DNA from: Rickettsiales bacterium
GTDB lineage: Bacteria; Pseudomonadota; Alphaproteobacteria; Rickettsiales; UBA1997
Reading direction: 5' to 3'
Length of the DNA stretch: 64,000 nt
Assembly: GCA_947442475.1 (NCBI GenBank)
Contig: CANEVP010000005.1
Coordinates: forward strand, 4,308 to 68,307
Translations under genes and position numbers: made by a program
Notes under the pieces: generated by a model
The model's input: only the letters and a program-made list of their open reading frames with translations
What the model was told of the DNA's origin: nothing
The model's database searches: none
Shown here: positions 29,164 through 45,430 of the stretch, piece after piece
Layout of the letters: each line of letters opens with the position of its first letter
Numbering within the stretch: the stretch's first letter is position 1

Positions 29164-30006
29164 ATGTCTCGCATCAGCTACTTAAACGGTGAATTTTTGC
29201 CTCACGAAAATTGCTTGGTTCACATTGAAGATCGAGGCTTTCAATTTGCCGACGGGGTTTACGAGGTTACGCTTTTTAAAAATGGCAAATTAATCGACGG
29301 CGAGCCTCATTTAGAAAGGCTTTTTAGAAGTTTACGCGAGATGAAAATTGAGCATGATTTTAAAAAAGAAGATTTGCGCAAAATGCAAATTGAACTTTTC
29401 GCCAAAAACCAAATGAGTGAAGGAATTTGCTACCTGCAAATCACGCGCGGCGCGACAAATCGCGTGCCGTTTTTTCCAAAAAATTTAACTCCGACAATTT
29501 CAGCAACTGTTGCTTTGGGCAAAAAATTAACAGAAGAAGAATTTGAAAAAGGCGTTTCAGTAATGACCCACGAAGACATCCGCTGGAAGCGCTGCGACAT
29601 TAAATCTATCGCACTATTTGCTTCGAGTTTTCTAAACCAAAAAGCCAAAGATCTTGGTTTTGACGACGCAATTTTTGTGCGTGACGGCGTTGTAACGGAA
29701 GGAAGTTTTGCTAATGCTTTTATTGTTGATGCGGCGGGAACCGTTGTTACCAGAGGTGCTGACAATTTAATTCTTTGCGGCATTACCAGAAATCGCCTAA
29801 TTGAATTTGCTAAAGCGGCTAAAATAAAAGTTGAAGAAAGAGATTTCGACGTTGCTGAGTTAATGACGGCGCAGGAAGTGTTTTTGACTAGTTCAAGCTT
29901 GATTGTGCGTCCGGTTACGAAGGTAGATGGGAAAGTTGTAGGAACGGGAAAAGCAGGAAAAGTTGCGCGGGTTTTGAGCGAGTCTTACAAGAACTTTATT
30001 GGGTAA
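29164..30006 (+). CDS. dat: Class IV aminotransferase, D-amino-acid transaminase-like
   Basis: 280 aa with EDRGFQFADGVYEV, YLQITRG and EGSFANAF motifs of fold-type IV PLP enzymes. The D-Ala versus branched-chain choice is not resolved. Confidence 0.7.
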   Translation: MSRISYLNGEFLPHENCLVHIEDRGFQFADGVYEVTLFKNGKLIDGEPHLERLFRSLREMKIEHDFKKEDLRKMQIELFAKNQMSEGICYLQITRGATNRVPFFPKNLTPTISATVALGKKLTEEEFEKGVSVMTHEDIRWKRCDIKSIALFASSFLNQKAKDLGFDDAIFVRDGVVTEGSFANAFIVDAAGTVVTRGADNLILCGITRNRLIEFAKAAKIKVEERDFDVAELMTAQEVFLTSSSLIVRPVTKVDGKVVGTGKAGKVARVLSESYKNFIG

Positions 30007-30051
30007 AAAAGAAATCGAGTTTGGAATGGCTGTTAGCAAGTACTTACTAAA

Positions 30052-30918
30052 TTAAGAAATCGTAAGATTATATTTCTGACCCAAATAAGTCTCCACCACC
30101 TGACGTTCCGTTGTTTGCAGCGCGCGGCTAAAGATGATTATTTCAGCAATGTCGCCATTTAAATAATGAGTTAAATATCTGCCAATCGCAGCTCCCGAAT
30201 AAGATGTTAAAGCTGAGTTAAACCCAACTCCAGCATCGTCCGCAGTGCCTCCACCATTGATCCAATATTTTTGACCAGCAGCCACATTAAACCAGAAGGT
30301 GTGAATTCTTGGCGTCGGGCTGGAATAAGCAGCGAGGGTAAAATCATTAAAAACACCGCTGGAATGAGCTTGAGTAATTGTGGTGTCTGAGCGGTAGCCT
30401 AAATGTAAATTGCCATTTGCAGCAGCGCTGTCGCCTCCCAAAAACATCATTTGACTGGTACTTGCTCTTCTTTGCTCGACCACAAAAATTGTGTAGGAAG
30501 AGCCAATTAGGGATGAGCCGTCAAAAGTTAAAAAATCATTAACTCCGTCAAATCTAATGGCCGGAAGCGATTCATTGAAAACTTTTTCGTAAAATTTTGG
30601 CTTACTGCTTGCGCTGGTTTGCGTCGCATTATTTTTAGATGCGGCATTTGAGCTATTGTCTTGCCAGACGCTGATTGAGCCGCCGTCAACTTGTTCTGAG
30701 AAAAGGAAGGAGCTTTCCAACGCGGTTTCGTACCAAATCGCCAAGTCGGCAATATCTTTCACTGAAGAATTTTGGGTAATGGTTTGAGCCGTTGAAAGTC
30801 GAGCCTTTAGAAACATCGCCTGCGACTTTATCACCCCAGCCACAATGGCAGCAATGATTGCCAAAACGACCGAGATTTCGACCAAGGAAAAGGCCGTGCG
30901 CAGAGATTTTTTTGGCAT
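30052..30918 (-). CDS. Modular type IV pilin-like protein: prepilin-type N-terminus plus LamG/concanavalin-like lectin module
   Basis: 288 aa. The N-terminus MPKKSLRTA|FSLVEISVVLAIIAAIVAGV fits the class III signal / N-methylation consensus except for Ala instead of Gly at -1. The C-terminal ~190 aa have the LamG_3 pattern (IRFDGVNDFLTF…YTIFVV…GDIAEIIIFSRALQTTERQVVETYLGQKY). Confidence 0.7.
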   Translation of the reverse strand: MPKKSLRTAFSLVEISVVLAIIAAIVAGVIKSQAMFLKARLSTAQTITQNSSVKDIADLAIWYETALESSFLFSEQVDGGSISVWQDNSSNAASKNNATQTSASSKPKFYEKVFNESLPAIRFDGVNDFLTFDGSSLIGSSYTIFVVEQRRASTSQMMFLGGDSAAANGNLHLGYRSDTTITQAHSSGVFNDFTLAAYSSPTPRIHTFWFNVAAGQKYWINGGGTADDAGVGFNSALTSYSGAAIGRYLTHYLNGDIAEIIIFSRALQTTERQVVETYLGQKYNLTIS

Positions 30919-30919
30919 T

Positions 30920-31684
30920 TTATTTAGCTAAAAAATTAATCGGACCCGTAGCGTGACCGTGAATAAATTGGTCGAGATAGGCGTTTCCTGAGGAGTACAT
31001 GTCTTTGACATCGCCAAACCAAATGATTCTACCTTCATAAAGCATGGCGATTTTATCAGCGATTTTGCGCGCTGAATTCATGTCGTGAGTAATGGTGATT
31101 GTGGTGGCACCCAGATGTTTCGAGTTCGAAATGATTAAGTCATTAATCACGTCCGCCATGATTGGATCGAGACCAGTTGTTGGCTCGTCGAAGAAAATAA
31201 TTTCAGGATTACTCGCAACGGCGCGCGCTAAAGAGGCGCGTTTTTGCATGCCGCCGGAAAGTTCTGACGGATAAAGATCGGCAACTTTTTCGCTCAAACC
31301 GACATCTTTTAATTTTGAAATGGCGATTTCGCGTGCTTCTTTTTTGTTGATTTTTTTGTGATTGAGCAAGCGGAACGCAACATTTTCCCAGATCGGTAAT
31401 GAATCAAATAAAGCGCCGCCCTGAAATAAAAATCCGAATTTCTCCATTAACTTGTCACGCTCTTTGTCGTTAAGACGCGAAACTTCAACATCGTCAATTT
31501 TAATGCTGCCAGAAGTTGCCTCTATTAGACTGGCAATGGTTTTAATTAGAACCGATTTGCCAGAACCCGAGCCGCCTAAAATGACAACTGACTCACCTTT
31601 ATTAACCACAAAATCAACGCCTTTGAGAACCTGCTTTTCGCCGAAATTTTTAGTGAGATTTGAAACGGTTAATTTTGTGGTCAT
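30920..31684 (-). CDS. mlaF: ABC transporter ATP-binding protein, MlaF-like
   Basis: 254 aa. Walker A GGSGSGKS, signature LSGGMQKR, Walker B IIFFDEPTTGLD, and the MlaF-like C-terminal tail YLDQFIHGHATGP. Its stop is 1 nt from the pilin ATG. Confidence 0.75.
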   Translation of the reverse strand: MTTKLTVSNLTKNFGEKQVLKGVDFVVNKGESVVILGGSGSGKSVLIKTIASLIEATSGSIKIDDVEVSRLNDKERDKLMEKFGFLFQGGALFDSLPIWENVAFRLLNHKKINKKEAREIAISKLKDVGLSEKVADLYPSELSGGMQKRASLARAVASNPEIIFFDEPTTGLDPIMADVINDLIISNSKHLGATTITITHDMNSARKIADKIAMLYEGRIIWFGDVKDMYSSGNAYLDQFIHGHATGPINFLAK

Positions 31685-31696
31685 TTTAATTTTTAT

Positions 31697-32476
31697 TTAT
31701 TTCTTCTCTGCCAATTTTTTTTCGATCAATTTCTTAAGTGTCACGTAATCAACATATCCTTCAGAAATTTCGCCATTTACGAAGAAAGTCGGCGCTGATT
31801 TAATTTGCAGAACTTTTGCTACTTCCATTCTTGCGGTAAGGATTTTTTCTTGCAGAGCTTTGTCAGCAAGACAGCTTTTGAATTTTGCTGAACTCATGCC
31901 GTCAAGGCTGGCAATTGCTTCTAATTTATCAGCAAATTTTTCGTCAAAAGCCCAAGCATCTTGGGTTTTAAAAAGAGCTTTTACCGTAGCGTAATATTTG
32001 CTGGTGGCTTCGGCTTTATTTTCATTAGCTTGGCAGTAAGCAAACATCGCACCAACCAAAGCAGATTGATTTAATGGAAAGTTACGGAAAGCGAATTGCA
32101 CTTTGCCAGTGTCGATAAATTCAGTTTTTAATTTTTCGAAAGATTCGCGAGTGAAAGCCGCACAGTGCGGGCAAGAAAGTGAAGCATATTCAACCATCAC
32201 AACCGGCGCAGATCTTTCGCCCAAAACATAATCAGAAGCAGAGATTTTTAAGATCTCGCTATTTTTGCGAGTTTCTTCCAAAGCAGCGGCATCAGCATTA
32301 ACTGCGGCGTTAACGGAATCTTGCTCATGTTGCTTGGGCGCTTCTACTGCAGCAGCTTGATCGTTATATTTTTCAGAAGTTTTGTTCTTATAATTGTGGG
32401 TCACCAGAGCGGCAAGGCCAACAAGAACAAGGACAGAAACAGCAATAGCGGTGCGCTTTTTAGATTGTTTTTGCAT
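31697..32476 (-). CDS. dsbA: DsbA-family thiol:disulfide oxidoreductase (Com1-like), membrane anchored or secreted
   Basis: 259 aa. N-terminal hydrophobic anchor and the thioredoxin-fold active site EYASLSCPHCAAF. Confidence 0.8.
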   Translation of the reverse strand: MQKQSKKRTAIAVSVLVLVGLAALVTHNYKNKTSEKYNDQAAAVEAPKQHEQDSVNAAVNADAAALEETRKNSEILKISASDYVLGERSAPVVMVEYASLSCPHCAAFTRESFEKLKTEFIDTGKVQFAFRNFPLNQSALVGAMFAYCQANENKAEATSKYYATVKALFKTQDAWAFDEKFADKLEAIASLDGMSSAKFKSCLADKALQEKILTARMEVAKVLQIKSAPTFFVNGEISEGYVDYVTLKKLIEKKLAEKK

Positions 32477-32565
32477 ATGAATTTTGATTTTGAAGTTGAC
32501 TGACAGAGGGACGAAATTGATGATTTGTTAAAGAAACTTTTTCTTGAAAAAAAATCAATCAATTT

Positions 32566-33345
32566 ATGCAAACTCCGATCTCAGTTTTCATCATTACTAA
32601 AAATGAAGAAGATCGAATTTTAGATGTGATTAATGCTGTAAAAACAATCGCCGATGAAATTTTGGTAATTGATTCTGGCAGCAGTGATAAAACCTGCGAA
32701 ATCGCCACTCGCGCTGGAGCAAAAGTGATGTTTAATGCTTGGCAAGGTTTTGGTTGGCAAAAAATTTTCGGTGAAAATCAATGTCGCAATAAATGGATTT
32801 TAAACATCGATGCCGATGAAGAAGTTTCACCAGAATTATGCGCCGAAATTAAAACAATTTTTACTAAAAACTCTCAGGAAGATTTTTACGGATTTCGCAT
32901 CAAAATTGTGAATCGCTTTCGCTTCGAAAAGCATCCCCACAAATATGCTTATTTTTACAATCAACTGCGTCTTTACAATAAAGATTACGCTGGCTTTAAA
33001 AATAGCACAGTACACGATTCCGTTGAGTTGCGTGACGGCGCCCTCGACAAAGTTGGTCAGTTAAAAAATATTATTTTTCACCAATCTTTCCGCTCATTTT
33101 CGCATTGGATCGAGAAAATAAATTTCTACTCGCAGATGCAAGCGCAAGATTCTTTTAGCAAGGGTAAATGCCCTTCAATTGCCAAAGTTTTGTTTGTTTC
33201 ATCCGTGGCATTTTTTAAAGCATACTTTGTGCGTCGCTATTGCATTTATGGTTTTAATGGTCTGACTTACAGCTACCTATTTGCCTTCTCGCGCTTTGCG
33301 AAAGCAATCAAAACGCGCGAGCTTTTCCAAGAAAAAAATCAGTAA
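32566..33345 (+). CDS. Family 2 glycosyltransferase
   Basis: 259 aa with ISVFIITKNEEDRI…, VIDSGSSDKT and NIDADE (DxD) motifs, plus a C-terminal TM region. Resembles LPS-core GT2 enzymes. Confidence 0.75.
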   Translation: MQTPISVFIITKNEEDRILDVINAVKTIADEILVIDSGSSDKTCEIATRAGAKVMFNAWQGFGWQKIFGENQCRNKWILNIDADEEVSPELCAEIKTIFTKNSQEDFYGFRIKIVNRFRFEKHPHKYAYFYNQLRLYNKDYAGFKNSTVHDSVELRDGALDKVGQLKNIIFHQSFRSFSHWIEKINFYSQMQAQDSFSKGKCPSIAKVLFVSSVAFFKAYFVRRYCIYGFNGLTYSYLFAFSRFAKAIKTRELFQEKNQ

Positions 33346-33912: not shown

Positions 33913-34074
33913 TTAATTCTGCAAACTACTTCTAACATTGGATTCAATTATCTTAGTAACCTTCTTTTCATCAATATAAGCCGAGGCAATCGCGGCTATG
34001 ATTGCTGTTACAACAAGCACAGCAATCATAAATCCACTAAAACTAAAGGCTGATTTTGGTGTTTTGAAACTCAT
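33913..34074 (-). CDS. Unannotated 53-aa mini-pilin-like ORF (below the ORF-track cutoff)
   Basis: My own translation of the minus strand gives MSFKTPKSAFSFSGFMIAVLVVTAIIAAIASAYIDEKKVTKIIESNVRSSLQN*. It shares the K-S-A-F-S leader junction and the following hydrophobic helix with the two larger pilin-like genes, but has Gly instead of Glu at +5. Confidence 0.35.
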   Translation of the reverse strand: MSFKTPKSAFSFSGFMIAVLVVTAIIAAIASAYIDEKKVTKIIESNVRSSLQN

Positions 34075-34231: not shown

Positions 34232-36496
34232 CTACTGGTTACACTTATAGACTAGATAATTCCCTGATGAGTTAACTTGCCGACCACAGTTAGCAGTAGT
34301 GCAATAAGATGTTAGCCACGCGGTTATATCCCAAGCATTTAAAGTTGATCCAGAAAGTGAATATACCGGACTCTGCACCAAAGCATAATGTCCACTATGT
34401 CCGCTACAGTTTATTGTTGAAAGGTGGAGCTGAGGACTTCCGACCCATCCGCTTCCACCTCTTCCTACTGAAGAAACAAGTGTCCAAGTAGTATTAGATG
34501 GGGCATATACCGAGCAAGATCCACTGGTGCTAGCAGCACCAGTTGCTGTACAAGTATAGTTTTTGGTTCCGGTGTAGCCTGTAGCATCACAAGCAAAGGT
34601 ACCACTGCCACCAGCAGCGTAAGCCAATCCGGTTTTAGCGGTCCAGCCGGTTCCAGCTGCTGCAGTGCAAGTGATTGCAGAACAAGTGCCGCCAGTAATG
34701 GTTGCAGCACCTGACGCCGTACAAGTGTAGTTTTTAGTTCCAGTGTAACCAGTGGCATTGCAAGAAAAAGTACCACTACCACCAGTAGCATAAGCCAATC
34801 CGGTTTTAGCGGTCCAGCCGGTTCCAGCTGCTGCAGTGCAAGTGATTGCAGAACAAGTGCCGCCAGTAATGGTTGCAGCACCTGACGCCGTACAAGTGTA
34901 GTTTTTAGTTCCAGTGTAACCAGTGGCGTCACAAGCAAAACTGCCGCTGCCACCAGCAGCGTAAGCAAGTCCAGATTTAGCATTCCAACCAGTTCCAGAC
35001 GCTGCGGTGCAAGTTATCGGACTACAAGTTCCACCAGTTATAGTTGCAGCACCTAAAGCATCGCAAGTGTAGTTTTTAGTTCCAGTATAACCAGCGGCAT
35101 TGCAAGAAAAAGTACCACTGCCACCAGTAGCATAAGCAAGTCCAGATTGAGCTTCATAGCCAGTTCCAGATGCTGCGGTGCAAGTTATCGGACTACAAGT
35201 TCCACCAGTTATAGTTGCGTCAGCGCCATCTGTGATACAAGTGTAGTTTTTAGTTCCGGTGTAGCCTGCAGCGTCACAAGTAAAAGTACCACTGCCATCA
35301 GCAGCGTAAGCAAGGCCAGATTTAGCGCCGTAACCAGTTCCGGCCGTTGCAGTACAAAAAACCTGAGTACATGTTCCAGCAATTGATGCCGCACCCGGCG
35401 TAATGCAAGTGTAAGTTGGAGAACCTACATATCCGGCTTGGCAAGGAGAGTTAATAGCCGTAGCGCTTGTTTTGTAAGCAAGCCCGGTTTTATTATTGAA
35501 ACCAGACACACCAGTAATTGAGCAAGTTGTTGCCACGCATGATGATCCCGACAAATAATATCCAGAATTACAATCGCAAGATCCGCTATTATAGGTATAC
35601 ACTTTACTTCCCGAACAACTGTAGTTTATTGAATCGGAACTGTCGAAATTAGAAGCGTTGCAAGCAAGATTTTGGTTAATGCCTTGATTCACTTTTGCAC
35701 CGCTATTAATTCCAATGGTAGTTGGAACATCGCATTGCACCACGCAATCTCCACCAACTCTAGTGTAACCAGTAGTACATCCAACCAAGTTTTGATCTTG
35801 AAGCGTAGTCAAATTAGCATCAGCTAAGAAATATTTTTTGTTTTTGAAAAAAACCAAATCGTCAAAAGTAGTGCCACTGCGATTGGTACCCGAAATTAAA
35901 TTAGCATCAGATCCTGATGGCATATTTTCAAGTTCATCAACATCAGTTGGAGCATTGATTTCCGTAGTTGCAAGAGACGAAACCGCACCTCTTTGATTTT
36001 TGCCACGACTAATAACTGCAAAAATTGCATTAGATTCTTCCACACCCAAAGATGATGAATATCTACTAACAACAATGTCGCCTTCCTGATCTACAAACTT
36101 GCTGGGAGTTGTCGCAACAGTGAAAGTTGAATCAATCACGTAAACCAATTTATTGCCGTAATCATCTTCGGCAAAAGCAGCAGCAAGATTTAAATCTTTA
36201 ACCGGCAACATACCATAAACCACAGTATCAGCAGCGCAGGAAATTTCACTGCCGTAAGTAGCGTCATTTTTAGGAATAGCAATTGAGGCAGGACAAGGAA
36301 GTCTCTTGTGAGCGCCGGAGTAAACTTTTAAAGCTTTATAAATTTGCCCAATGCGATCGTTGGTGACTTTAATTTTATTGGTAGAATTGCTACTGGTTTG
36401 AACCGATAAAATTCCAACTAGCACGGCGGAAGCAACAAGCACAACTACGGAAAGTTCAGTTAAGCTGAACGCCGATCTCAATTTTTTAAATTTCAT
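34232..36496 (-). CDS. Giant modular type IV pilin-like protein with Cys-rich tandem repeats
   Basis: Start placed at the internal ATG (36496): MKFKKLRSA|FSLTELSVVVLVASAVLVG, a prepilin-type N-terminus with Ala at -1. A region of about 230 aa follows, then an EGF-like Cys-rich region (CDCNSGYYLSGSSC), six 56-57-aa four-Cys repeats and a 95-aa C-terminal domain. Confidence 0.7.
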   Translation of the reverse strand: MKFKKLRSAFSLTELSVVVLVASAVLVGILSVQTSSNSTNKIKVTNDRIGQIYKALKVYSGAHKRLPCPASIAIPKNDATYGSEISCAADTVVYGMLPVKDLNLAAAFAEDDYGNKLVYVIDSTFTVATTPSKFVDQEGDIVVSRYSSSLGVEESNAIFAVISRGKNQRGAVSSLATTEINAPTDVDELENMPSGSDANLISGTNRSGTTFDDLVFFKNKKYFLADANLTTLQDQNLVGCTTGYTRVGGDCVVQCDVPTTIGINSGAKVNQGINQNLACNASNFDSSDSINYSCSGSKVYTYNSGSCDCNSGYYLSGSSCVATTCSITGVSGFNNKTGLAYKTSATAINSPCQAGYVGSPTYTCITPGAASIAGTCTQVFCTATAGTGYGAKSGLAYAADGSGTFTCDAAGYTGTKNYTCITDGADATITGGTCSPITCTAASGTGYEAQSGLAYATGGSGTFSCNAAGYTGTKNYTCDALGAATITGGTCSPITCTAASGTGWNAKSGLAYAAGGSGSFACDATGYTGTKNYTCTASGAATITGGTCSAITCTAAAGTGWTAKTGLAYATGGSGTFSCNATGYTGTKNYTCTASGAATITGGTCSAITCTAAAGTGWTAKTGLAYAAGGSGTFACDATGYTGTKNYTCTATGAASTSGSCSVYAPSNTTWTLVSSVGRGGSGWVGSPQLHLSTINCSGHSGHYALVQSPVYSLSGSTLNAWDITAWLTSYCTTANCGRQVNSSGNYLVYKCNQ
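34520..35545 (-). repeat. Six tandem 171-bp (57-codon) coding repeats inside the giant pilin gene
   Basis: Protein repeat unit: C-TAA(S/A)GTG(Y/W)xAK(S/T)GLAYAxGGSG(T/S)F(S/A)C(D/N)A(A/T)GYTGTKNYTCxxxGAATITGGTCSxIT. At DNA level the string aagccaatccggttttagcggtccagcc… recurs at 34621 and 34792 (171-bp period) with long identical runs. Confidence 0.9.
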
Positions 36497-36595
36497 CTCA
36501 GTTTTATGTAGCTTTAGGAATGAGGTCAAAGAGTGATGATTCATCAAAAGATAGCTACCGCATCATTGCAATAGTATTTTGTCGATTTTTTTAGA

Positions 36596-38679: not shown

Positions 38680-39695
38680 TTAATATCTGCTAAACATTTC
38701 TTTGATTTCTTCAATATTCGAAGTTTTGGTGAGAGCCATCATTGTCAAAATTCTAGATTTTTGCGGGCTCAAATTATCCGCCGTTACAAAACCTAATTCA
38801 CTGTCATTTAACTCAACATTTGGCACCACTAAACCTGCTCCAACTCTAGTGCTTCTAACAATCACTACGCCTTTTTTTCTAGCTTCAATTAATCTTTCCA
38901 AGCTGGCTTTGTTCAGATTGCCATCACCAACACCTGCGATAACGATTGCTTTTGATCCCGACTCAACCAAGCGATCAATCACGCTAGGCTCTTGTCCTGC
39001 ATGAGCGTAGATGATATCAACCTTTGGCAAATCTTCTGACTTTTTAATATTGAAAATAGTTTCTGCGGTGTGAGTTCTGATTGGCTCATAATAAATTTCT
39101 GGCTTGCCGTAATAGACATATCCGATCGGGCCAGAGTTATTTGCTTTAAATGAGTTAACTTGAATCGTACTGGTTTTTGAAACATCGCGAGCAGCCAAAA
39201 TATCGTCGTTCATCAACACCAATACACTTTTGCCATAAGCAACTTTGCTGCTGGCAAGCGCTACAGCATTATATAAATTGAGAGCTCCATCAGCGCTTAA
39301 AGAAGTTGCTGGACGCATCGCTCCAACCACCACAACTGGCTTTTGGCTTTTAACAACTAGGTTCAGGAAATAGGCCGTTTCTTCTAAGGTGTCGGTACCG
39401 TGAGTGATAACAATTCCATCAACTGAACGCTTGGCTAAAAGCTCATTTACTCTTTTGGCAATTTTAAGCCAAACAGCATTATCGATCTCTTGGCTTGAGA
39501 TTTGAATTAATTGCTCAGCGTCAATATCAGCTAATTTTTCAATACCGGGAACGGTTTTAATGATTTTTGCGATATCAATTTTGATGCGAAATATTTAGAG
39601 CCAACCGAAGAATCTCCAGCGCCAGATATGGTGCCCCCAGTTGCAAGAATAAAAATATTTTTGGCTTTAGCATGAGCGTTGCAAGAAATTGCCAC
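38680..39695 (-). pseudogene. ansB: L-asparaginase (type II family), disrupted by a frameshift and lacking room for a signal peptide
   Basis: Downstream frame (38680-39594): KIDIAKIIKTVPGIEKLADIDAEQL…GIVITHGTDTLEETAYFLNL…KPVVVVGAMRPATSLSADGALNLYNAV… Upstream frame (39531-39695): …KNIFILATGGTISGAGDSSVGSKY, which holds the catalytic TGGT motif. The homology jumps frame at about 39584-39597. The upstream end abuts tRNA-Thr at 39704. Confidence 0.7.
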
Positions 39696-39901: not shown

Positions 39902-42900
39902 TTACTTAGAATCGCCGCCTTCGTCACCGCCTCCATCGCCTCCACCAGCTTCATCACCGTCAGCACTACTTTTAGATTGATCTCCGCCAGCATCGCCATC
40001 GCCACCACCTTTGCTGCCACCTTTATTTCCAGCCTTACCTATTGCCTCTCGAGTTTTGGCAGCTTTTTCCAATCCTTTGTTACCTAATTTTTTACTGGCA
40101 CCAGCGGCACGTTTTTGTATTGACGCCAAAACACCCTTGACTTTGCTCATCATTTCAAGTGGATCGGCATTTCCACCATCCAACTTTGATCCACCGACTA
40201 ATAGTGCAGCCATTCCTGAAATTTCGTTCATGAATTTATAAAGCAAGAACATCACCATCGCACCCTTCAAAATGGTGAGAACCTTGATCTGCCCATTTTC
40301 GCCAAAAATATTCATTAAAATTGGAATGCTCAAACCAATCATTTCAAGACCCGGCATCGTACCAAAATCATCCAGATTTATTAGACAGGCAACACTATCA
40401 CTCATTGGATCCAATATTTTATCTCCGGTATCATCGCAGTCAGGGAGTTTACCATTAACATATGGATCAATTGAGCCGTCCAAGTTTTTACAAATTTTAG
40501 AGCAAGAAATTGTTTTAGATGGAGCCTGTCCAGAGAAGGTGGCGCTACCAATCATGGTTTTATCCATGATTGTTACAAATAATGCGATATAGGCAAAAAG
40601 TATCATAGGCTGCAAGCAGTATCCTATTAACTCTGTCACCCATTTTTTGAAAATATCAGACGTCTTACTAAACATCGCTGTGGGTATAATCACTGGCGAG
40701 ACGAAGACTAAAATAATAATACCTGCCGCCGAAGCCAAAAAAATATGCAAAGCGCGTAAGGTAGCTGCTAAAAAGAAGAAACCGAAGAACATTACGGCAA
40801 TGGCAAAATAAATTCCTACCCCCGTGGAACTAACTCCCGCAATGTTGAAGCTGAAATATCCAGCAAAAATTAATGACGCAATATTGGCAACACTGACCTC
40901 TGGACCATAGCCCAAATAGCGCATCATTTTACAATCAAGCGTATCCCACAAAGCCAAATATTCTTTGCCAGAAGGATAGGTGCGACCAGAAGAAACTTGC
41001 GAACCATCCGGCAATGAAATCATCCCAAATTGACAGCCATCCCTTTGAGACTCAGATTGCTGAGAGCTAATTTTAAAGACCATCTGCGAAAACTCTGTCG
41101 AGGCGCCGTAAACTCCCTTGAAGAAGAAACCTTGCCACGCATCGCCCGTAGCAAAAAAAAGCACCAAGGTAATTTTGAGCAGATACATTAGGATGTCTTT
41201 TTTCTCTCCGATATTCGCCTTACCCAGCAAGATGTTCATGCCGTAGAACATAATCGATAAAGTCAGAACCATCTTCACCGAATCCTTCATAGTGTTTTGC
41301 ACTATTGAGAAAAATGAAGTCTCTTTCACCGTATTGCCTTTTTGATAAATGAAGTTGCCGTTTACTTTGTAATTACCACTTGGACAAGATCCATCTGGAG
41401 ACGGATATTCATTTGCGTTAGCGCATTTACTGTGACCCGCAACGTTGTAGAAAAGATTTTCTAAAGTTTCTTTCACGCATTGCGCAATTGGCGCCGAAAA
41501 GTGCTTCTGACTATTTAGAATAAAGCTGCCGCCGTAGGCGGTTTGGTTTTGAGAGTCACCGACAAAATTCAAGCAAGCATCTGAGAAATAAGGCGATCCT
41601 AAATTGGTTTCATATTGATAATCTGCTAAACTGGTGACAGTGCAGTGAGTTAAATATTGGCAATAATTTTTACATTTGCCCGCCTTTGCATTGTAGGAAC
41701 AATCACTATTTCTGATTTCACTTTTTGAAGAGCAATTGCCTGCCTTAACGTCATCTTGAGTGATCATGGTCCATCTTCCATTGGAGTATTTTCCATCTTG
41801 GTAATAATCACAATATTCCGAACCCCCACCAACAGCAAAGTTATAAGGGCATAAGCTGTAGGTTTGGGCGCAAATTAAACTACCATTGTCGAGTGATTTG
41901 GTTGAGAAGGTGATGCCTTCCACATTGCATAATTGACCAACTTTACAAAAAGTTTTAACGCCTGTTACCGGATTACTCGCCACATCACCGCCGCCAGAAA
42001 GGCCCGATGCTCCATTTAAGCCACTAGTAACGCCCCCGGTAACCACGCCAACGCTGCTCGAAAGCGCTGTATAATTTAAACAAATAAATTCGGCGCTGCG
42101 TTTTTTACAGCAGGCATAGGCATTTTGTAATTCAACAATTCTTGCGGCAGTGACGGGAGCATTAGTTAAGGGGTCCATATTGCCCGGAACTAAATTATAT
42201 TTCTTACAGTTATAATTACCTGCCGCAGTGCCTCTCATGTAATATTTCTGCTTCGGATATTTGCCATTCACCCTCTGCGTCACGTCGTAACAGCTTTGGT
42301 AACCTCCATCGGGATTATCCTCTACCTCTTCACCGCCGTAATACCATTCGCGATAAGTTTTATCTCCTGAGGCTTCGAGAGTTAATTTTGAGGTTTGTCC
42401 GTCGCGAATATAGCCCTCAACCGCATCTTTTACTTTCTGCTTTTTATTCGGAGCACTGATATCATATGTTAAAGGATTTGCCGTCACCCATTGCGCACCA
42501 CAAACTTCAGTATGATTATAAGTGTTAAGGGCAATTCCGTAAATTATGGCAAGCTGGGCAATCGCGATACCCCAGCTCGCAGTGGCCACAGCAACAGCTG
42601 CACCACATGAATAATTTTGCTGGAGGAGAGCTCTTTTCACTCCCTCAATGGCTCCTCTAGTCAGATCGTAAGCGTCTAGAAGTGGAACTGGAAGTATTCT
42701 AGGAATTATGCTTCCAGTTGAGCATATGCCATTCATCGCGGCAATCGAGGTTTTTACTGCCACATATGTTGTCAATATTACGGTGAAGCATACTGGATTT
42801 GACAAAACAAATTCCGCGTCCTTACCGGCATTTGTCATGTCAAAATTTAAGGTATCTGGAACGCCACTAGAGCTGCAACTGCGGGTTCTACCAACGCCAT

Positions 42901-43021
42901 AATCAGTTGCGCTTTCCGCGTAAGAACCTTGTAGAGAAGTAACAAAAAAACAGCAAAAAACACCGACAGCAAGCAGCAAACGCGAAGCTCTTCTAAAAAA
43001 TGTTTGCTGAAAAATTATCAC
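39902..43021 (-). CDS. virB6: Giant VirB6/TrbL-like type IV secretion inner-membrane protein
   Basis: 1039 aa, immediately downstream of virB4 (21-nt gap). Signal/TM at the N-terminus, a Cys-rich soluble region of about 330 aa, then a block of at least 6 predicted TM helices (residues ~570-900) as in VirB6/TrbL, and a Gly/Asp/Lys-rich acidic tail (…GGGDGDAGGD…GGGDGGGDEGGDSK). Large VirB6 paralogs after virB4 are typical of Rickettsiales rvh systems. Confidence 0.6.
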   Translation of the reverse strand: MIIFQQTFFRRASRLLLAVGVFCCFFVTSLQGSYAESATDYGVGRTRSCSSSGVPDTLNFDMTNAGKDAEFVLSNPVCFTVILTTYVAVKTSIAAMNGICSTGSIIPRILPVPLLDAYDLTRGAIEGVKRALLQQNYSCGAAVAVATASWGIAIAQLAIIYGIALNTYNHTEVCGAQWVTANPLTYDISAPNKKQKVKDAVEGYIRDGQTSKLTLEASGDKTYREWYYGGEEVEDNPDGGYQSCYDVTQRVNGKYPKQKYYMRGTAAGNYNCKKYNLVPGNMDPLTNAPVTAARIVELQNAYACCKKRSAEFICLNYTALSSSVGVVTGGVTSGLNGASGLSGGGDVASNPVTGVKTFCKVGQLCNVEGITFSTKSLDNGSLICAQTYSLCPYNFAVGGGSEYCDYYQDGKYSNGRWTMITQDDVKAGNCSSKSEIRNSDCSYNAKAGKCKNYCQYLTHCTVTSLADYQYETNLGSPYFSDACLNFVGDSQNQTAYGGSFILNSQKHFSAPIAQCVKETLENLFYNVAGHSKCANANEYPSPDGSCPSGNYKVNGNFIYQKGNTVKETSFFSIVQNTMKDSVKMVLTLSIMFYGMNILLGKANIGEKKDILMYLLKITLVLFFATGDAWQGFFFKGVYGASTEFSQMVFKISSQQSESQRDGCQFGMISLPDGSQVSSGRTYPSGKEYLALWDTLDCKMMRYLGYGPEVSVANIASLIFAGYFSFNIAGVSSTGVGIYFAIAVMFFGFFFLAATLRALHIFLASAAGIIILVFVSPVIIPTAMFSKTSDIFKKWVTELIGYCLQPMILFAYIALFVTIMDKTMIGSATFSGQAPSKTISCSKICKNLDGSIDPYVNGKLPDCDDTGDKILDPMSDSVACLINLDDFGTMPGLEMIGLSIPILMNIFGENGQIKVLTILKGAMVMFLLYKFMNEISGMAALLVGGSKLDGGNADPLEMMSKVKGVLASIQKRAAGASKKLGNKGLEKAAKTREAIGKAGNKGGSKGGGDGDAGGDQSKSSADGDEAGGGDGGGDEGGDSK

Positions 43022-43042
43022 CGAATTCTGATTTTTTTTAAA

Positions 43043-45430
43043 TTATTTAGGACGGCTGCGTTCGTAATAAATTGGCAACCAATCGTCAGGATCTTCGCCA
43101 ACCTCGTCAATGATTTCATCCATTAGAATCACGGTGTCAATACGAGCAGAAAGAACACGAATTACGTCATCCATTCCACCCAAATCAATGCGCGCAATTA
43201 CGCCGTCATTATCTTGTTTTACGAGGAAGAAACGCGTTGAAGGATCTGTCGTTTTTACCAAGTTAAATTCGCGCTCACTCAACATGAAAACTTCGCGATA
43301 AAGTATCGTAGCTTTCAAGTTTGGCAGAAAAATCTGCGTTGAGGTTTGTTGCACCAAAGTGTCGGAAATACTACTTTTGGCCGCGTCTTCCACCGATTGC
43401 GTCGCAAATACTACAAAGGTGTTAAGTTTTCTTAAAACTTTGAGCCAGTCTTTAATTTTTGGCGCAAAAACTGGGTTTCCAATCAAGGCCCAAGCTTCAT
43501 CGAGAACGATCATGGTTGGCGAACCATCAAGCGAACTTTGAATACGATGAAATAAATAAAGCAGCACCGGACCAATAGAGGCCTTATCTTGCAAGATGTG
43601 CGACATTTCAATTCCGAAAGAGCGCGCCGACGTGAAATCGATCATGTCATCTTCATTATCAAACAACTTGGCGTGCGAACCTGTTGTATGCCACATGGCT
43701 AATCTACCAGCTAAAGTTCCTGGACCGCCCAAGCCCATGAAAGGCGCGATATTTCGGATTCTTCTTTGTTCTTTCGGCAGTTTGTAATTTCCTTTTACCG
43801 CTTCGTTAATGCGCTCAATTTCGTGAGCTGGCAAAGCCACGTCGCCAACCATTACCAGTGCCTTCATGAAGTCGATTAAGAATGAGCGATTTTCAGCAGT
43901 ATCTTCGAGTTGAAATGGATTAAAGCCGGAAGTTTTTGCCGCATCCGGAATCATGTAACGGCCACGAATCGCGCGAATAAAAATTTCTGCACCACGATCT
44001 TTATCAAAGAAAAATAAACGGCCGTTAAATTTTTGCGCCTGCGCGCAAAGGAAGTTTAGCAATACCGTTTTACCCGCACCAGTCGGCCCGATAATCATAC
44101 TGTGACCAACGTCACGCACGTGAAAACTGAAAAAATAAGGCGTGCCCGAAACGGTGTTAAGCACCGTCACCGCGTCACCCCAGTGATTTTTCTTTCTTTT
44201 GCCTGACGGATAATTGTGAAAAGAGGCAAAAGCCGCGATATTTAAAGTGTTCACCGTACTGCGGCGCGCCATAAACTCAGCATTGCCGGGTAGTTGCGCC
44301 CAATAAGCTGGCTCCAAATTCATTTTCTCGCGAGCACCGGTAATACCAGTGTTTGAAAGCTCAACTACTGCAAGCGACAAAGCGCTTTCCAAAGCTTTTG
44401 GCGATTCTTCAATACATAAAACTGACATGTGATGCAAGCCAAAACCAAACTCACCACTCATCGCTGAATCTAGCGCCGAGTCAATTTCTTGGATTTGCGA
44501 AACCGCAACGTCTTCCGACTGAATCAAGCGCCGTTGTTGCAACTGCATCGAACTAATCGCCACCATGCGATTAATAAAAGAAAATGATTGGCTGATAATG
44601 AGCTCAAAAGGCATCTGCATAAAACCATCAAAAACTCCGGCGTGAGTTGATGGGCGGTATTCTTTAATTGAAACCATGCCGGCATATTTGGCGCCAGTTG
44701 GGTGATGAACTTCAACTGATTTATTGCCGAAATAAAGTCGACTAATTGGCAAGTGATGCGAGATTTGACCCAAGGGAATTGTCATTGGTTGCGAGTGACC
44801 GCAATTAACCAAGCGCGAGAAAAATTCTAGAATTTCTGAAGTAACGCCATCCTCGCTTTCATTAATGCCTAAAACGCGCGGACCGTAATTGCCGTAACCA
44901 TTTAAAATACGCTCAGTCATCTCATCAAGTTCGTCAAAAGCTTCGCGCATGTAATTTTCCCACGAAGATTTATCAGCGCGATGCTGCAATTTTTTCGCCA
45001 TATGTTCCAGCACCGCAGCACCCGAAGTGTCAGCTCCACGAATAATCGTGAAATAATGTTCATTAATAAAACTTCTGGTGCCTGAGTGCTTTTTTTCCCA
45101 TTCACTATTAACGCGCGCCGAAAATAAATCAGGCATTTCGCCATCAGGAAAACCTTTTTCTTTGCGACGAATGGTGTGAAAATAAAGCGAAAAATTGCCT
45201 GACGCCATACCTTTCAAAAGGTTGTTTCTGGCATTTTTTTTGAGATCAATATCAGCGTCATCAGCGGTCTCGAAGGCGAATCCTTTAATTTTAATAACAC
45301 GAACTAACTCTTCTTTGTGAGTTAAAATCGTGTCTGAATTCCAATGGCATTTATAAGGAATAAAATACGCCGCCGAAACCTCTCCCTTGGTGACTTTTTC
45401 TTTTGCTGGCTTAACGGTTGAAAGACGCAT
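43043..45430 (-). CDS. virB4: Type IV secretion system ATPase VirB4
   Basis: 795 aa. N-terminal CagE/TrbE/VirB4 pattern (YFIPYKCHW…, VIKIKGFAFETADD), Walker A GPTGAGKTVLLNFL, Walker B MIVLDEAW and the C-terminal FATQS motif. Confidence 0.9.
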   Translation of the reverse strand: MRLSTVKPAKEKVTKGEVSAAYFIPYKCHWNSDTILTHKEELVRVIKIKGFAFETADDADIDLKKNARNNLLKGMASGNFSLYFHTIRRKEKGFPDGEMPDLFSARVNSEWEKKHSGTRSFINEHYFTIIRGADTSGAAVLEHMAKKLQHRADKSSWENYMREAFDELDEMTERILNGYGNYGPRVLGINESEDGVTSEILEFFSRLVNCGHSQPMTIPLGQISHHLPISRLYFGNKSVEVHHPTGAKYAGMVSIKEYRPSTHAGVFDGFMQMPFELIISQSFSFINRMVAISSMQLQQRRLIQSEDVAVSQIQEIDSALDSAMSGEFGFGLHHMSVLCIEESPKALESALSLAVVELSNTGITGAREKMNLEPAYWAQLPGNAEFMARRSTVNTLNIAAFASFHNYPSGKRKKNHWGDAVTVLNTVSGTPYFFSFHVRDVGHSMIIGPTGAGKTVLLNFLCAQAQKFNGRLFFFDKDRGAEIFIRAIRGRYMIPDAAKTSGFNPFQLEDTAENRSFLIDFMKALVMVGDVALPAHEIERINEAVKGNYKLPKEQRRIRNIAPFMGLGGPGTLAGRLAMWHTTGSHAKLFDNEDDMIDFTSARSFGIEMSHILQDKASIGPVLLYLFHRIQSSLDGSPTMIVLDEAWALIGNPVFAPKIKDWLKVLRKLNTFVVFATQSVEDAAKSSISDTLVQQTSTQIFLPNLKATILYREVFMLSEREFNLVKTTDPSTRFFLVKQDNDGVIARIDLGGMDDVIRVLSARIDTVILMDEIIDEVGEDPDDWLPIYYERSRPK

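What the first reader, a model, noticed from the sequence alone, without database searches (positions are those of the whole stretch)
30052..32476. dsbA - mlaF-like ATPase - LamG-module pilin form a translationally coupled operon
dsbA stops 12 nt before the ABC ATPase ATG, and the ATPase stop is 1 nt before the pilin ATG. The pilin carries a C-terminal LamG/concanavalin-like lectin module (…FDGVNDFLTF…GDIAEIIIFSRALQTTERQVVETYLGQKY). It is therefore a modular pilin of the kind described for the Streptococcus sanguinis minor pilins, where a lectin or vWA module is grafted onto a pilin. I am not aware of this being characterised in alphaproteobacterial endosymbiont-like genomes. The MlaF-like ATPase lacks its usual MlaE permease partner here, so its coupling to a pilin gene is unexplained.
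Basis: partly seen in the sequence, partly recalled or inferred. Interest (0 to 1): 0.65.

Follow-up and report, generated by a model that had tools for sequence, protein, structure and literature searches.

The report
Lectin-headed pilin behind two housekeeping genes
A pilus-subunit-like protein with a sugar-binding-type head lies directly behind two unrelated housekeeping genes in the compact genome of a freshwater Rickettsiales relative; this protein architecture is already known and the tight gene spacing is normal for this genome.

Summary
Three minus-strand genes, DsbA-like (31697-32476), MlaF/MceG-type ABC ATPase (30920-31684) and a 288-aa prepilin-like protein (30052-30918), are separated by 12 nt and 1 nt.

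The LamG call holds, though not by the test proposed. The window protein gets no Pfam PF13385 hit, but 17 of 43 relatives do. A confident AlphaFold model (pLDDT 90.9) shows one long N-terminal helix followed directly by a concanavalin-A-like beta-sandwich.

The operon reading is weaker. In this window 19 of 44 same-strand gene pairs are 12 nt apart or less, mostly unrelated genes. The whole ~30-kb block is syntenic across freshwater Rickettsiales MAGs that include named Gamibacteraceae members. The pilin has no cysteine, so it does not need DsbA. About 40 paralogous pilin loci lack the DsbA/ABC neighbours.

The three genes are probably co-transcribed but functionally unrelated. mlaE/mlaD lie outside the window; the whole genome could not be searched.

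N_methyl+PF13385 is a published, frequent modular-pilin architecture, and type IV pilus components are reported for this clade.

The modest new point is a lineage-wide, multi-copy family of lectin pilins. Some members are fused to Cys-rich Sushi-like repeats. They are plausible host-attachment adhesins.

The parts
31697..32476 (-). DsbA-like periplasmic thiol:disulfide oxidoreductase, 259 aa, with an N-terminal signal anchor. The CPHC active site is at residues 102-105 (nt 32162-32173).
   Evidence: PF13462 at 5.3e-39 and PF01323 at 8.5e-07. The best PDB matches are 3f4r/3f4s/3f4t at 2e-29, which to my knowledge are Wolbachia alpha-DsbA1. CPHC position.
31685..31696 (-). 12-nt spacer between the dsbA stop and the ABC ATPase start.
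   Evidence: Sequence read. There is no SD motif. In relatives this gap ranges from -14 to 136 nt.
30920..31684 (-). MlaF/MceG-type ABC transporter ATP-binding protein, 254 aa. Walker A GGSGSGKS is at residue 37, the LSGGM signature at 142 and Walker B IFFDEP at 163. The C-terminal tail reads ...DQFIHGHATGPINFLAK.
   Evidence: PF00005 at 5.6e-32. The MlaF equivalog model scores 169 bits, below its cutoff of 441. It is 34% identical to E. coli MlaF. The best full-length single-NBD PDB hits are 8fed MceG and MlaF entries 7d06, 6z5u, 7ch8 and 6xbd, all aligned through residue 251. JGI names homologs 'phospholipid/cholesterol/gamma-HCH transport system ATP-binding protein'.
30919..30919 (-). 1-nt spacer between the ATPase stop (TAA, 30920-30922) and the pilin ATG (30916-30918).
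   Evidence: The junction is conserved at -4 to +18 nt in 12 distinct related contigs.
30052..30918 (-). Prepilin-like protein with a ConA/LamG-like head, 288 aa, no cysteine.
30892..30918 (-). Predicted class III leader peptide MPKKSLRTA (residues 1-9). The predicted cleavage site lies between Ala9 and Phe10.
   Evidence: TIGR02532 matches residues 9-29. A9, F10 and S11 are nearly invariant and E14 is invariant in 43 relatives.
30772..30885 (-). Alpha-1 helix, residues 12-49. Its hydrophobic N-terminal half is FSLVEISVVLAIIAAIVAGVI (residues 10-30).
   Evidence: AlphaFold model secondary structure.
30073..30744 (-). Single ConA/LamG-like beta-sandwich (strands between residues 59 and 263) plus a C-terminal helix at residues 269-282.
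   Evidence: Model pLDDT is 90.9. Foldseek matches the trans-sialidase lectin domain, BoNT/NTNH Hc-N, CBM40, AbnA domain 4 and S. sanguinis PilC 7oa7. PF13385 hits 17 of 43 relatives. The same roughly 210-aa module (residues ~75-286) recurs 3-14 times in giant proteins of other phyla, one of which has three PF13385 hits.
34232..36496 (-). Second prepilin-like gene of the neighbourhood, 754 aa from the likely start MKFKKLRSA|FSLTE, with 38 Cys. It has a long alpha-1 helix and then Cys-rich ~57-aa repeats. It is not part of the three-gene string but belongs to the same modular-pilin repertoire.
33913..34074 (-). 53-aa ORF with a pilin-like N-terminus (KSA|FSFSGF...) that has Gly in place of Glu at +5. 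It is conserved in close relatives.

Best explanation
The three genes form a transcriptionally linked but functionally mixed string in a compact genome (about 92% coding). The organism is a freshwater Rickettsiales relative. Its synteny is shared with MAGs that include RIFCSPLOWO2_01_FULL_40_26, a named member of Gamibacteraceae.

dsbA encodes a housekeeping periplasmic oxidoreductase of the alpha-DsbA1 type.

The ATPase is the nucleotide-binding subunit of an MCE/Mla-type lipid transporter. I infer that its permease (MlaE) and MCE (MlaD) partners are encoded elsewhere in the genome.

The third gene encodes a type IV pilin-like subunit. After removal of a 9-residue leader by a prepilin peptidase, its hydrophobic alpha-1 helix would insert into a type IV pilus, or a T2SS-like pseudopilus. 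That would display a ConA/LamG-type beta-sandwich, most likely at the filament tip, as a glycan-binding adhesin.

The pilin gene has no room for its own promoter outside the ATPase coding sequence. It is therefore probably expressed by read-through from the upstream housekeeping genes.

Shown here: the gene identities, the fold, the junctions, the conservation of the arrangement and the absence of partner genes nearby. Inferred: co-transcription, leader cleavage, filament incorporation, glycan binding, and the location of mlaE/mlaD elsewhere.
For: Family-level LamG and N_methyl hits come, and module recurrence in unrelated giant proteins.

The genome is compact and mixes functions. 19 of 44 same-strand pairs are 12 nt apart or less, including PanB-AsmA (0 nt), YbeY-ferrochelatase-ABC-3 permease (4-nt overlaps) and MurB-TrmB (8-nt overlap) (annotations). 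No promoter-like or terminator-like site lies at either junction, and the site counts in the region are no higher than shuffled sequence gives.

The block VirB4-VirB6-...-QueA-[variable]-lipoprotein-GT2 | DsbA-ABC-pilin(1-2 copies)-[variable] | aminotransferase IV-enolase-TGT is syntenic across many MAGs.

The ATPase is 76-98% identical across genomes in which the pilin drops to 37-52%. That is housekeeping-like constraint beside a fast-evolving surface protein.

The pilin has 0 Cys, and 32 of 43 family members have none. About 40 other pilin loci lack DsbA and ABC neighbours; 14 of them sit behind an unrelated class-IV-aminotransferase-like gene.

The ABC-3 permease at 14968-15759 also lacks an adjacent ATPase or binding protein. 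A secretin gene lies among housekeeping genes in a related MAG that carries two of these pilins (L053).

Literature: type IV pilus components are present in the Deianiraeaceae/Diomedesiaceae/Gamibacteraceae clade and are proposed to serve host attachment (PMC10847448; PMC9352585). Family UBA1997 cells are epibionts on cryptophytes (bioRxiv 10.1101/2023.01.31.526412).
Against: The ABC-to-pilin junction stays tight in every genome that keeps the arrangement. This is what a functional operon would also look like.

No mlaE or mlaD was found in the 64-kb window or in about 865 kb of related loci. 'Partner elsewhere' is therefore assumed, not shown.

The window protein itself misses both Pfam thresholds: N_methyl scores 15.6 against 21.2, and there is no PF13385 hit. 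The -1 residue is Ala, not the canonical Gly.

No prepilin peptidase, PilB/GspE or PilC/GspF gene was seen in any sequence I could examine.

The model shows no separate pilin globular domain. Assembly competence is therefore unproven.
Confidence: 0.65

Rival explanations
1. The three genes form a true functional envelope operon. DsbA folds the pilin, and the MlaF-like ATPase, with an unknown membrane partner, contributes to pilin or pilus biogenesis or to remodelling the outer membrane around the pilus.
For: The order is conserved and the ABC-to-pilin junction is very tight in 12 distinct related contigs, despite strong pilin divergence. All three products act in the cell envelope. The divergent neighbours are a GT2 glycosyltransferase and a lipoprotein. 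A Cys-rich pilin-like protein that would need DsbA lies 1.8 kb upstream of dsbA on the same strand.
Against: The LamG pilin has no cysteine, and the family has no conserved cysteine. ABC NBDs need a transmembrane partner, and none is nearby. Known type IV pilus and T2SS systems are powered by GspE/PilB-type ATPases, not ABC proteins (established knowledge). Most paralogous pilin loci have no DsbA or ABC gene. Equally tight junctions join clearly unrelated genes throughout the window. The entire roughly 30-kb region is syntenic, so conserved adjacency is not specific to these genes.
Confidence: 0.1
2. The 288-aa protein is not a filament subunit. Its N-terminal hydrophobic helix works as an uncleaved signal anchor or as a T2SS-type pseudopilin stub. 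This would hold a LamG domain in the periplasm or at the inner membrane, for example as a polysaccharide- or peptidoglycan-binding factor.
For: It scores below the Pfam N_methyl threshold and has Ala at -1. The alpha-1 helix is shorter than usual, about 40 mature residues, with no pilin beta-sheet module. No pilus machinery was found in the window or the sampled loci, apart from one secretin.
Against: Phe+1 is nearly invariant and Glu+5 is invariant across 43 relatives. 28 of 43 relatives hit N_methyl at E<=0.01, and TIGR02532 passes its cutoff. Some family members have the canonical Gly at -1 (L029, NG|FTLLE). Ala at -1 is tolerated by prepilin peptidases (my knowledge of P. aeruginosa PilD mutagenesis, not checked here). 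Type IV pilus components are reported in this clade (PMC10847448). Fusions with Sushi-like repeats and Gly_rich_2 domains suggest extracellular display.
Confidence: 0.2
3. The ATPase is not an Mla/MCE component but the missing NBD of another importer whose genes are scattered, for example the ABC-3 (ZnuB-like) permease at 14968-15759.
For: That permease has no adjacent ATPase. NCBIfam scores for MlaF (169 bits) are no better than for ProV, PhnT2 or GlnQ (170-179 bits), and all are below their cutoffs.
Against: The only PDB proteins aligned end-to-end, including the C-terminal extension to residue 251, are MceG and MlaF. JGI's KO assignment for many homologs is K02065. No ZnuC-type model is among the top 25 NCBIfam hits.
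Confidence: 0.05

Closest known systems
[quoted passage not shown] 2021 (PMC8179133)
   Same: A class III signal peptide-like N-terminus is followed by a ConA/LamG-type carbohydrate-binding-like module. The predicted role is ligand binding presented by a type IV filament.
   Different: The window protein itself falls below both Pfam thresholds. The module follows the alpha-1 helix directly. The family is Cys-free and has Ala at -1 in most members. The host lineage is Rickettsiales-related MAGs, and the architecture is multi-copy per genome.
Streptococcus sanguinis minor pilin PilC (PDB 7OA7/7OA8; PMC9934059)
   Same: It is a pilin carrying a ConA-like lectin module. Foldseek aligns the model to 7oa7 (E 5.5e-6, TM 0.46 normalised to the query). 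It is a glycan-binding adhesin proposed to sit at the pilus tip.
   Different: PilC is 52.8 kDa, with a short pilin moiety, an Ig-like module and then the lectin module. It comes from a monoderm and sits inside a dedicated 22-kb pil locus. The protein here is 288 aa with a single beta-sandwich, comes from a diderm, and is embedded among housekeeping genes. It ranks only 50th among structural matches, and no sequence similarity was detected.
MlaF (E. coli, A. baumannii, P. aeruginosa) and MceG (Mycobacterium) ATPases of MCE-type lipid transporters
   Same: A single NBD of about 255-270 aa with a C-terminal extension. These are the best full-length PDB matches. It is 34% identical to E. coli MlaF.
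   Different: It is not adjacent to mlaE, mlaD, mlaC or mlaB, whereas E. coli has mlaFEDCB as one operon. It scores far below the NCBIfam MlaF equivalog cutoff.
Wolbachia alpha-DsbA1 (PDB 3F4R/3F4S/3F4T)
   Same: It is the best solved-structure match of the DsbA-like protein (E 2e-29). Both have the thioredoxin/DsbA fold with a CXXC site.
   Different: The active site here is CPHC. No functional data exist. That these entries are Wolbachia alpha-DsbA1 rests on my memory of the depositions; the PDB molecule name reads only 'putative uncharacterized protein'.

Membership tests
Type IV pilin / class III signal peptide proteins | Profile match to the prepilin N-terminal cleavage/methylation motif | tested here: inconclusive
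   TIGR02532 scores 16.6 bits against a cutoff of 16.3, a pass. Pfam N_methyl scores 15.6 bits against a gathering score of 21.2, a fail. 28 of 43 relatives hit N_methyl at E<=0.01, best 2e-6.
Type IV pilin / class III signal peptide proteins | Short basic leader, Gly at -1, Phe/Met at +1, Glu at +5, about 20 hydrophobic residues | tested here: inconclusive
   The leader MPKKSLRT is basic, Phe+1 is present, Glu+5 is present and invariant in 43 sequences, and a 21-residue hydrophobic stretch follows. These four features are met. The -1 residue is Ala rather than Gly in the window protein and in at least 90% of relatives. Some paralogs have Gly.
Type IV pilin / class III signal peptide proteins | Long N-terminal alpha-1 helix packed on a globular alpha/beta pilin domain | tested here: inconclusive
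   The model has a helix at residues 12-49. It is followed by one ConA-like sandwich and no separate four-stranded pilin sheet. Model coordinates could not be inspected for helix packing.
Type IV pilin / class III signal peptide proteins | Cleavage and N-methylation by a prepilin peptidase, and polymerisation by a PilB/GspE-PilC/GspF machinery encoded in the same genome | not testable with these tools
   None of these genes is in the window or in about 865 kb of related loci, apart from one secretin in L053. The whole genome was not available. The literature reports type IV pilus components in the clade (PMC10847448).
Laminin_G_3 / concanavalin A-like lectin-glucanase superfamily | Pfam PF13385 match above threshold | tested here: not met
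   The window protein has no PF13385 hit at E<=0.1. At family level, 17 of 43 relatives match, best 9.6e-8. Fused relatives P0244 and P0256 pass the gathering score at 35 bits against 27.6.
Laminin_G_3 / concanavalin A-like lectin-glucanase superfamily | Two-sheet jelly-roll beta-sandwich fold | tested here: met
   The AlphaFold2 model has pLDDT 90.9 and pTM 0.87. Foldseek finds 211 PDB matches at E<=1e-3, led by ConA-like domains: a phage tailspike, the trans-sialidase lectin domain, clostridial neurotoxin Hc-N, AbnA domain 4, CBM40 and PilC.
Laminin_G_3 / concanavalin A-like lectin-glucanase superfamily | Carbohydrate binding | not testable with these tools
   This needs glycan arrays or binding assays. 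No binding-site residues were analysed.
Modular pilin sensu Raynaud/Pelicic (pilin module + linker + functional module) | A recognisable functional module that also exists independently of pilins | tested here: met
   Residues ~75-286 match 3-14 tandem copies in giant proteins of 1.3-6.5 kaa from other phyla, including Bacteroidetes and Thermoguttaceae MAGs. One of them has three PF13385 hits. Within the lineage the module is also fused to Cys-rich repeats.
Modular pilin sensu Raynaud/Pelicic (pilin module + linker + functional module) | A complete pilin module separate from the grafted module | tested here: not met
   Only the alpha-1 helix precedes the sandwich, and there is a 9-residue connection between residues 49 and 59.
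MlaF (Mla phospholipid transport ATPase) | Equivalog-level profile score | tested here: not met
   NF008809 scores 169 bits against a cutoff of 441.
MlaF (Mla phospholipid transport ATPase) | MCE-transporter-type NBD with a C-terminal extension, closest to MlaF/MceG | tested here: met
   The full-length single-NBD PDB hits are 8fed (182 bits), 7d06/6z5u (164), 7ch8 (156) and 6xbd (137.5), all aligned to residue 251. Homologs carry the K02065 name.
MlaF (Mla phospholipid transport ATPase) | Genomic or physical association with the MlaE permease and the MlaD MCE protein | tested here: not met
   Nothing within the 64-kb window matches by Pfam. tblastn and phmmer with E. coli MlaE, MlaD, MlaC and MlaB found nothing in the window or the related loci. 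Presence elsewhere in the genome could not be tested.
DsbA family | Thioredoxin fold with a CXXC site and export signal | tested here: met
   PF13462 at 5.3e-39 and PF01323 at 8.5e-7. CPHC is at residues 102-105. The N-terminal hydrophobic segment is visible.
Operon with translational coupling | Same strand, spacers too short for a promoter or terminator, conserved in relatives | tested here: met
Operon with translational coupling | A single transcript, with downstream translation dependent on upstream translation | not testable with these tools
   This needs RNA-seq or RT-PCR and reporter fusions. Short spacers are the genome-wide norm and SD motifs are rare (5 of 42 genes). The sequence alone therefore cannot separate coupling from plain compaction.

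The most novel reading that the evidence does not exclude
This Cys-free 'helix plus LamG head' pilin family, together with its fusions to Sushi-like Cys-rich repeats, is the lineage-specific adhesin repertoire of Gamibacteraceae/UBA1997-type Rickettsiales. These epibiotic bacteria would use it, displayed on their retained type IV pili, to bind surface glycans of cryptophyte or ciliate hosts. Multi-copy paralogs and shuffled modules would provide host-range or antigenic variation. Wiring one copy behind dsbA-mlaF would ensure constitutive expression.
Probability: 0.3. Interest if true: 0.55.

Novelty: new member of a known kind. Interest (0 to 1): 0.3.

Why it matters
As an operon the finding is ordinary. 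It illustrates that in reduced, compact genomes, tight or overlapping junctions and conserved adjacency do not indicate shared function.

The pilin family is the useful part. Comparative studies propose that extracellular Rickettsiales relatives attach to protist or algal hosts through type IV pili, but they name no adhesin. A widespread lectin-headed pilin family gives concrete candidates for that attachment step. The family has at least 479 representatives (one per 50%-identity cluster) at E<=1e-30 and 1-5 copies per MAG. That step is relevant to how host association evolved in Rickettsiales.

Tried and rejected
1. A direct Pfam scan of the window pilin for PF13385 found no hit. A profile of the family against PDB sequences found only weak pilin N-terminus matches (E 0.03-0.2) and no LamG entry.

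2. I looked for mlaE, mlaD, mlaC and mlaB. Pfam scans covered 47 of the window's roughly 59 ORFs, including every ORF not already annotated in the contig look-ups. tblastn and phmmer with the E. coli proteins searched the window and about 865 kb of related loci. Nothing was found. E. coli queries may be too distant for MlaD and MlaC, and the loci sample only about 20 kb per genome, so this does not show absence from the genome.

3. I looked for the type IV pilus or T2SS machinery (GspC/D/E/F/G/L/M/O, HofB/C, PpdD) in the same sequences. Only one secretin turned up, in L053.

4. The promoter and terminator scan of 29800-32700 gave nothing above the shuffled expectation and nothing at the junctions. 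This is uninformative.

5. The contig look-up for a window protein at 9658-10353 was not on record. The look-up for VirB4 returned only a 6.8-kb contig. Window annotation therefore had to be done by Pfam scans.

6. I considered the ATPase as the partner of the stranded ABC-3 permease and rejected it on the PDB and KO evidence.

7. I considered DsbA as the pilin's foldase and rejected it because the pilin has no cysteine.

8. Literature searches for LamG pilins in Deianiraea or Rickettsiales found no paper describing them.


Full report
**Observation**

- 31697-32476: 259 aa.
- 30920-31684: 254 aa.
- 30052-30918: 288 aa.

The first stop (TAA, 31697-31699) lies 12 nt upstream of the second ATG. 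The second stop (TAA, 30920-30922) lies 1 nt upstream of the third ATG. The quoted peptide motifs are present.

**Gene identities**

The first protein matches Thioredoxin_4 (PF13462, 5.3e-39) and DSBA. It has an N-terminal hydrophobic anchor and a CPHC site at residues 102-105. Its best solved relatives are 3f4r/3f4s/3f4t at E 2e-29. To my knowledge these are Wolbachia alpha-DsbA1.

The second protein is a single ABC nucleotide-binding domain (PF00005, 5.6e-32).
- NCBIfam does not discriminate: ProV 179 bits, GlnQ 170, MlaF 169, all far below their cutoffs.
- The only PDB proteins aligned end-to-end, including the C-terminal tail to residue 251, are the MCE-transporter ATPases. These are MceG (8fed, 182 bits) and MlaF of A. 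baumannii, P. aeruginosa and E. coli.
- It is 34% identical to E. coli MlaF.
- JGI names many homologs 'phospholipid/cholesterol/gamma-HCH transport system ATP-binding protein'.

'MlaF-like' is therefore fair.

The third protein starts MPKKSLRTA|FSLVEISVVLAIIAAIVAGVI.
- TIGR02532 just passes (16.6 bits against 16.3). Pfam N_methyl just fails (15.6 against 21.2).
- In an alignment of 43 relatives Glu+5 is invariant, and Ala-1, Phe+1 and Ser+2 are nearly invariant.
- 28 of the 43 relatives hit N_methyl.

**The LamG question**

Three other lines of evidence support the assignment.
- 17 of 43 relatives hit PF13385, best 9.6e-8.
- An AlphaFold2 model built on that alignment is confident (pLDDT 90.9, pTM 0.87). 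It shows a helix at residues 12-49, a single beta-sandwich from residue 59 to 263, and a C-terminal helix at 269-282.
- Foldseek against the PDB returns 211 matches at E<=1e-3, led by ConA/LamG-type domains. These are the trans-sialidase lectin domain, clostridial neurotoxin and NTNH Hc-N, AbnA domain 4 and CBM40. S. sanguinis PilC (7oa7) ranks 50th at E 5.5e-6.

An exhaustive phmmer search of 1.84 billion representatives found 479 proteins at E<=1e-30.
- Most of the top 150 are pilin-type proteins of 275-310 aa.
- Residues ~75-286 also occur as 3-14 tandem copies in giant proteins of unrelated phyla. One of these, from a Thermoguttaceae MAG, has three PF13385 hits.

The C-terminal body is therefore a discrete LamG_3-type module.

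The protein differs from PilC. There is no separate pilin globular domain and no Ig-like linker module. The alpha-1 helix runs almost directly into the sandwich (PilC architecture from PMC9934059).

**Is the operon meaningful?**

The Pfam scans and contig look-ups show a mixture of unrelated housekeeping genes at about 92% coding density. They include ribosomal proteins, MurB, MurG, ferrochelatase, PDH E1, DnaG, RpoD, enolase, QueA, UbiE, NuoG and DnaJ. The Rickettsiales-type T4SS genes virB4 and virB6 are also present.

Of 44 same-strand neighbour pairs, 19 have gaps of 12 nt or less and 11 have gaps of 1 nt or less. Examples:
- PanB-AsmA: 0 nt.
- YbeY-ferrochelatase-ABC-3 permease: 4-nt overlaps.
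- MurB-TrmB: 8-nt overlap.
- Enolase-aminotransferase IV: 8 nt.

Only 5 of 42 genes have a Shine-Dalgarno motif. The consensus scan gives no promoter or terminator at either junction, and nothing above the shuffled expectation.

The three genes are thus very likely co-transcribed. In this genome that says little about function.

**Conservation**

I fetched 59 loci encoding relatives of the pilin from GTDB species genomes. Almost all are freshwater 'Rickettsiales' or 'Alphaproteobacteria' MAGs.

Ten of them, plus contigs L064/L065 and a 434-kb JGI contig, keep DsbA-ABC-pilin.
- The ABC-to-pilin junction is always between -4 and +18 nt.
- Pilin identity falls to 37%, while the ATPase stays at 76-98%.

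The conserved unit is much larger than these three genes. The order is VirB4, VirB6, (asparaginase), UbiE, QueA, [variable], lipoprotein, GT2. DsbA, ABC and one or two pilin copies follow on the opposite strand, then a second variable region. Aminotransferase IV, enolase and TGT come last, back on the first strand. Adjacency is therefore not specific evidence for coupling.

About 40 other pilin loci have no DsbA or ABC gene within reach. Fourteen of them sit directly behind an unrelated class-IV-aminotransferase-like gene. Several are tandem arrays of 2-5 paralogs.

The pilin contains no cysteine, and 32 of 43 relatives have none either. It is not a DsbA substrate.

The window contains a second stranded ABC component, the ABC-3 permease at 14968-15759, which overlaps ferrochelatase. 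Dispersed transporter genes are therefore normal here.

No MlaE, MlaD, MlaC or MlaB was found in the window or in about 865 kb of related loci. I could not search a whole genome. 'Partners elsewhere' remains an inference.

**Lineage and literature**

Two of the MAGs that carry these pilins are named members of Gamibacteraceae (bioRxiv 10.1101/2021.08.31.458344).
- RIFCSPLOWO2_01_FULL_40_26 (L009/L025) shows the same DsbA-ABC-pilin synteny.
- UBA2645 (L060) carries pilin paralogs.

Another locus is from 'Rickettsiales bacterium UBA1997' (L021). Members of family UBA1997 were shown by CARD-FISH to be epibionts on freshwater cryptophytes (bioRxiv 10.1101/2023.01.31.526412).

[quoted passage not shown] They are proposed to mediate extracellular attachment to hosts (PMC10847448; PMC9352585).

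I found one secretin gene (PF00263, 9e-36) among housekeeping genes in a related MAG with two LamG pilins (L053). I found no peptidase, assembly ATPase or platform gene in the sequences available.

[quoted passage not shown] I found no paper describing such pilins in Rickettsiales.

**Mechanism proposed**

Shown here: the identities, the fold, the junctions and the synteny.

Inferred:
- A dsbA-ATPase-pilin transcript is made from a promoter upstream of dsbA or within the upstream genes.
- The prepilin is inserted in the inner membrane, cleaved after Ala9 and N-methylated on Phe10 by a prepilin peptidase encoded elsewhere.
- It is incorporated through its alpha-1 helix into a type IV pilus, most likely at the tip because of its bulky head.
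- There the LamG sandwich binds a glycan on a host or prey surface.
- DsbA and the MlaF-type ATPase carry out their usual envelope functions independently.

**Rivals**

- A true functional envelope operon (0.1).
- A membrane-anchored periplasmic LamG protein that is never polymerised (0.2).
- An ATPase belonging to another scattered importer (0.05).

**Side observations**

The neighbourhood holds two more pilin-like genes.

The first is a 754-aa protein (34232-36496, minus strand, MKFKKLRSA|FSLTE) with 38 Cys.
- Its model has a canonical-length alpha-1 helix (residues 12-63) and then beta-rich repeats at pLDDT about 85.
- The best plausible structural matches for those repeats are strings of complement-control (Sushi) modules, and the match is weak (E about 2e-3, probability 0.9).
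- The repeats are a recent 171-nt x 4.6 tandem array with 84% matches.
- Its roughly 40 homologs combine N_methyl with LamG_3, Gly_rich_2, or in single cases Sushi or B_lectin domains.

In contigs L046 and L048 the LamG pilin and the Cys-rich repeats are fused in one protein of 596 or 707 aa. The lineage therefore shuffles modules on a prepilin N-terminus.

The second is a 53-aa ORF (33913-34074) with a pilin-like N-terminus that lacks Glu+5.

**Verdict**

The domain calls are essentially right. The functional operon reading is not supported, and the 'unexplained' coupling is explained by genome compaction and block synteny. The pilin is a new member of a known kind. Its modest value is as a candidate host-attachment adhesin family in extracellular Rickettsiales relatives.

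Noticed in passing
window 34232-36547 (-), likely start at 36496: A 754-771-aa prepilin-like protein (MKFKKLRSA|FSLTE) with 38 Cys. The AlphaFold model has a helix at residues 12-63 and then beta-rich ~57-aa repeats. Foldseek weakly matches these to complement-control (Sushi) module strings. The DNA shows a 171-nt x 4.6 tandem repeat at 34533-35327 with 84% matches. The window protein has no Pfam hit. About 40 homologs combine N_methyl with LamG_3, Gly_rich_2, Sushi or B_lectin.
   Followed up: partly
L048 226-2349 (+) and L046 3882-5672 (+): In two related MAG contigs the LamG pilin is fused in one ORF (707 and 596 aa) to the Cys-rich repeats and C-terminal domain. In the window those parts belong to the separate 771-aa protein. 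This is module shuffling on a prepilin N-terminus.
   Followed up: partly
window 33913-34074 (-): A 53-aa ORF with a pilin-like N-terminus (MSFKTPKSA|FSFSGFMIAVLVV...) that has Gly instead of Glu at +5. It is conserved at 54% identity in close relatives (L003, L004). Its function is unknown; it could be a degenerate pilin or a small membrane protein.
   Followed up: no
window 14968-15759 (-): An ABC-3 family (ZnuB/MntB-like) permease overlaps ferrochelatase by 4 nt and has no adjacent ATPase or binding protein. It is a second example of a stranded ABC transporter component.
   Followed up: no
window 38680-39333 (-) and 39531-39695 (-): The asparaginase appears split. A 54-aa N-terminal fragment (…ILATGGTISGAGDS…) and a 217-aa C-terminal ORF are separated by about 200 nt with no continuous frame. 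The ortholog in L064 is intact at 348 aa. This is a probable pseudogene or an assembly error.
   Followed up: partly
L012, L013, L015, L017-L019, L021, L022, L024, L027-L030, L055 (e.g. L029 9128-11846): In another subclade the orthologous LamG pilin lies directly downstream of, and co-directional with, a class-IV-aminotransferase-like gene that is 23-31% identical to the window's gene at 29164-30006. A more divergent second LamG pilin of about 310 aa follows. The L029 copy has the canonical Gly at -1 (NG|FTLLE).
   Followed up: partly
window 39902-45430 (-): The Rickettsiales-type T4SS genes virB6-like (1039 aa, TrbL domain) and virB4 (795 aa) lie 7 kb from the pilin genes. The same linkage appears in relatives (the 434-kb JGI contig, L064, L065), some of which also carry TrbC/VirB2-like genes nearby.
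   Followed up: no
whole window: Only 5 of 42 genes checked have a GGAG, GAGG or AGGA motif at positions -20 to -4. Upstream regions are A/T-rich, which suggests largely SD-independent initiation.
   Followed up: partly
search of representatives with window 30052-30918: The ~210-aa LamG-like module recurs 3-14 times in giant proteins (1,300-6,500 aa) from other phyla, for example Bacteroidetes and Thermoguttaceae MAGs. In several of these Pfam does not annotate the matching stretches.
   Followed up: partly
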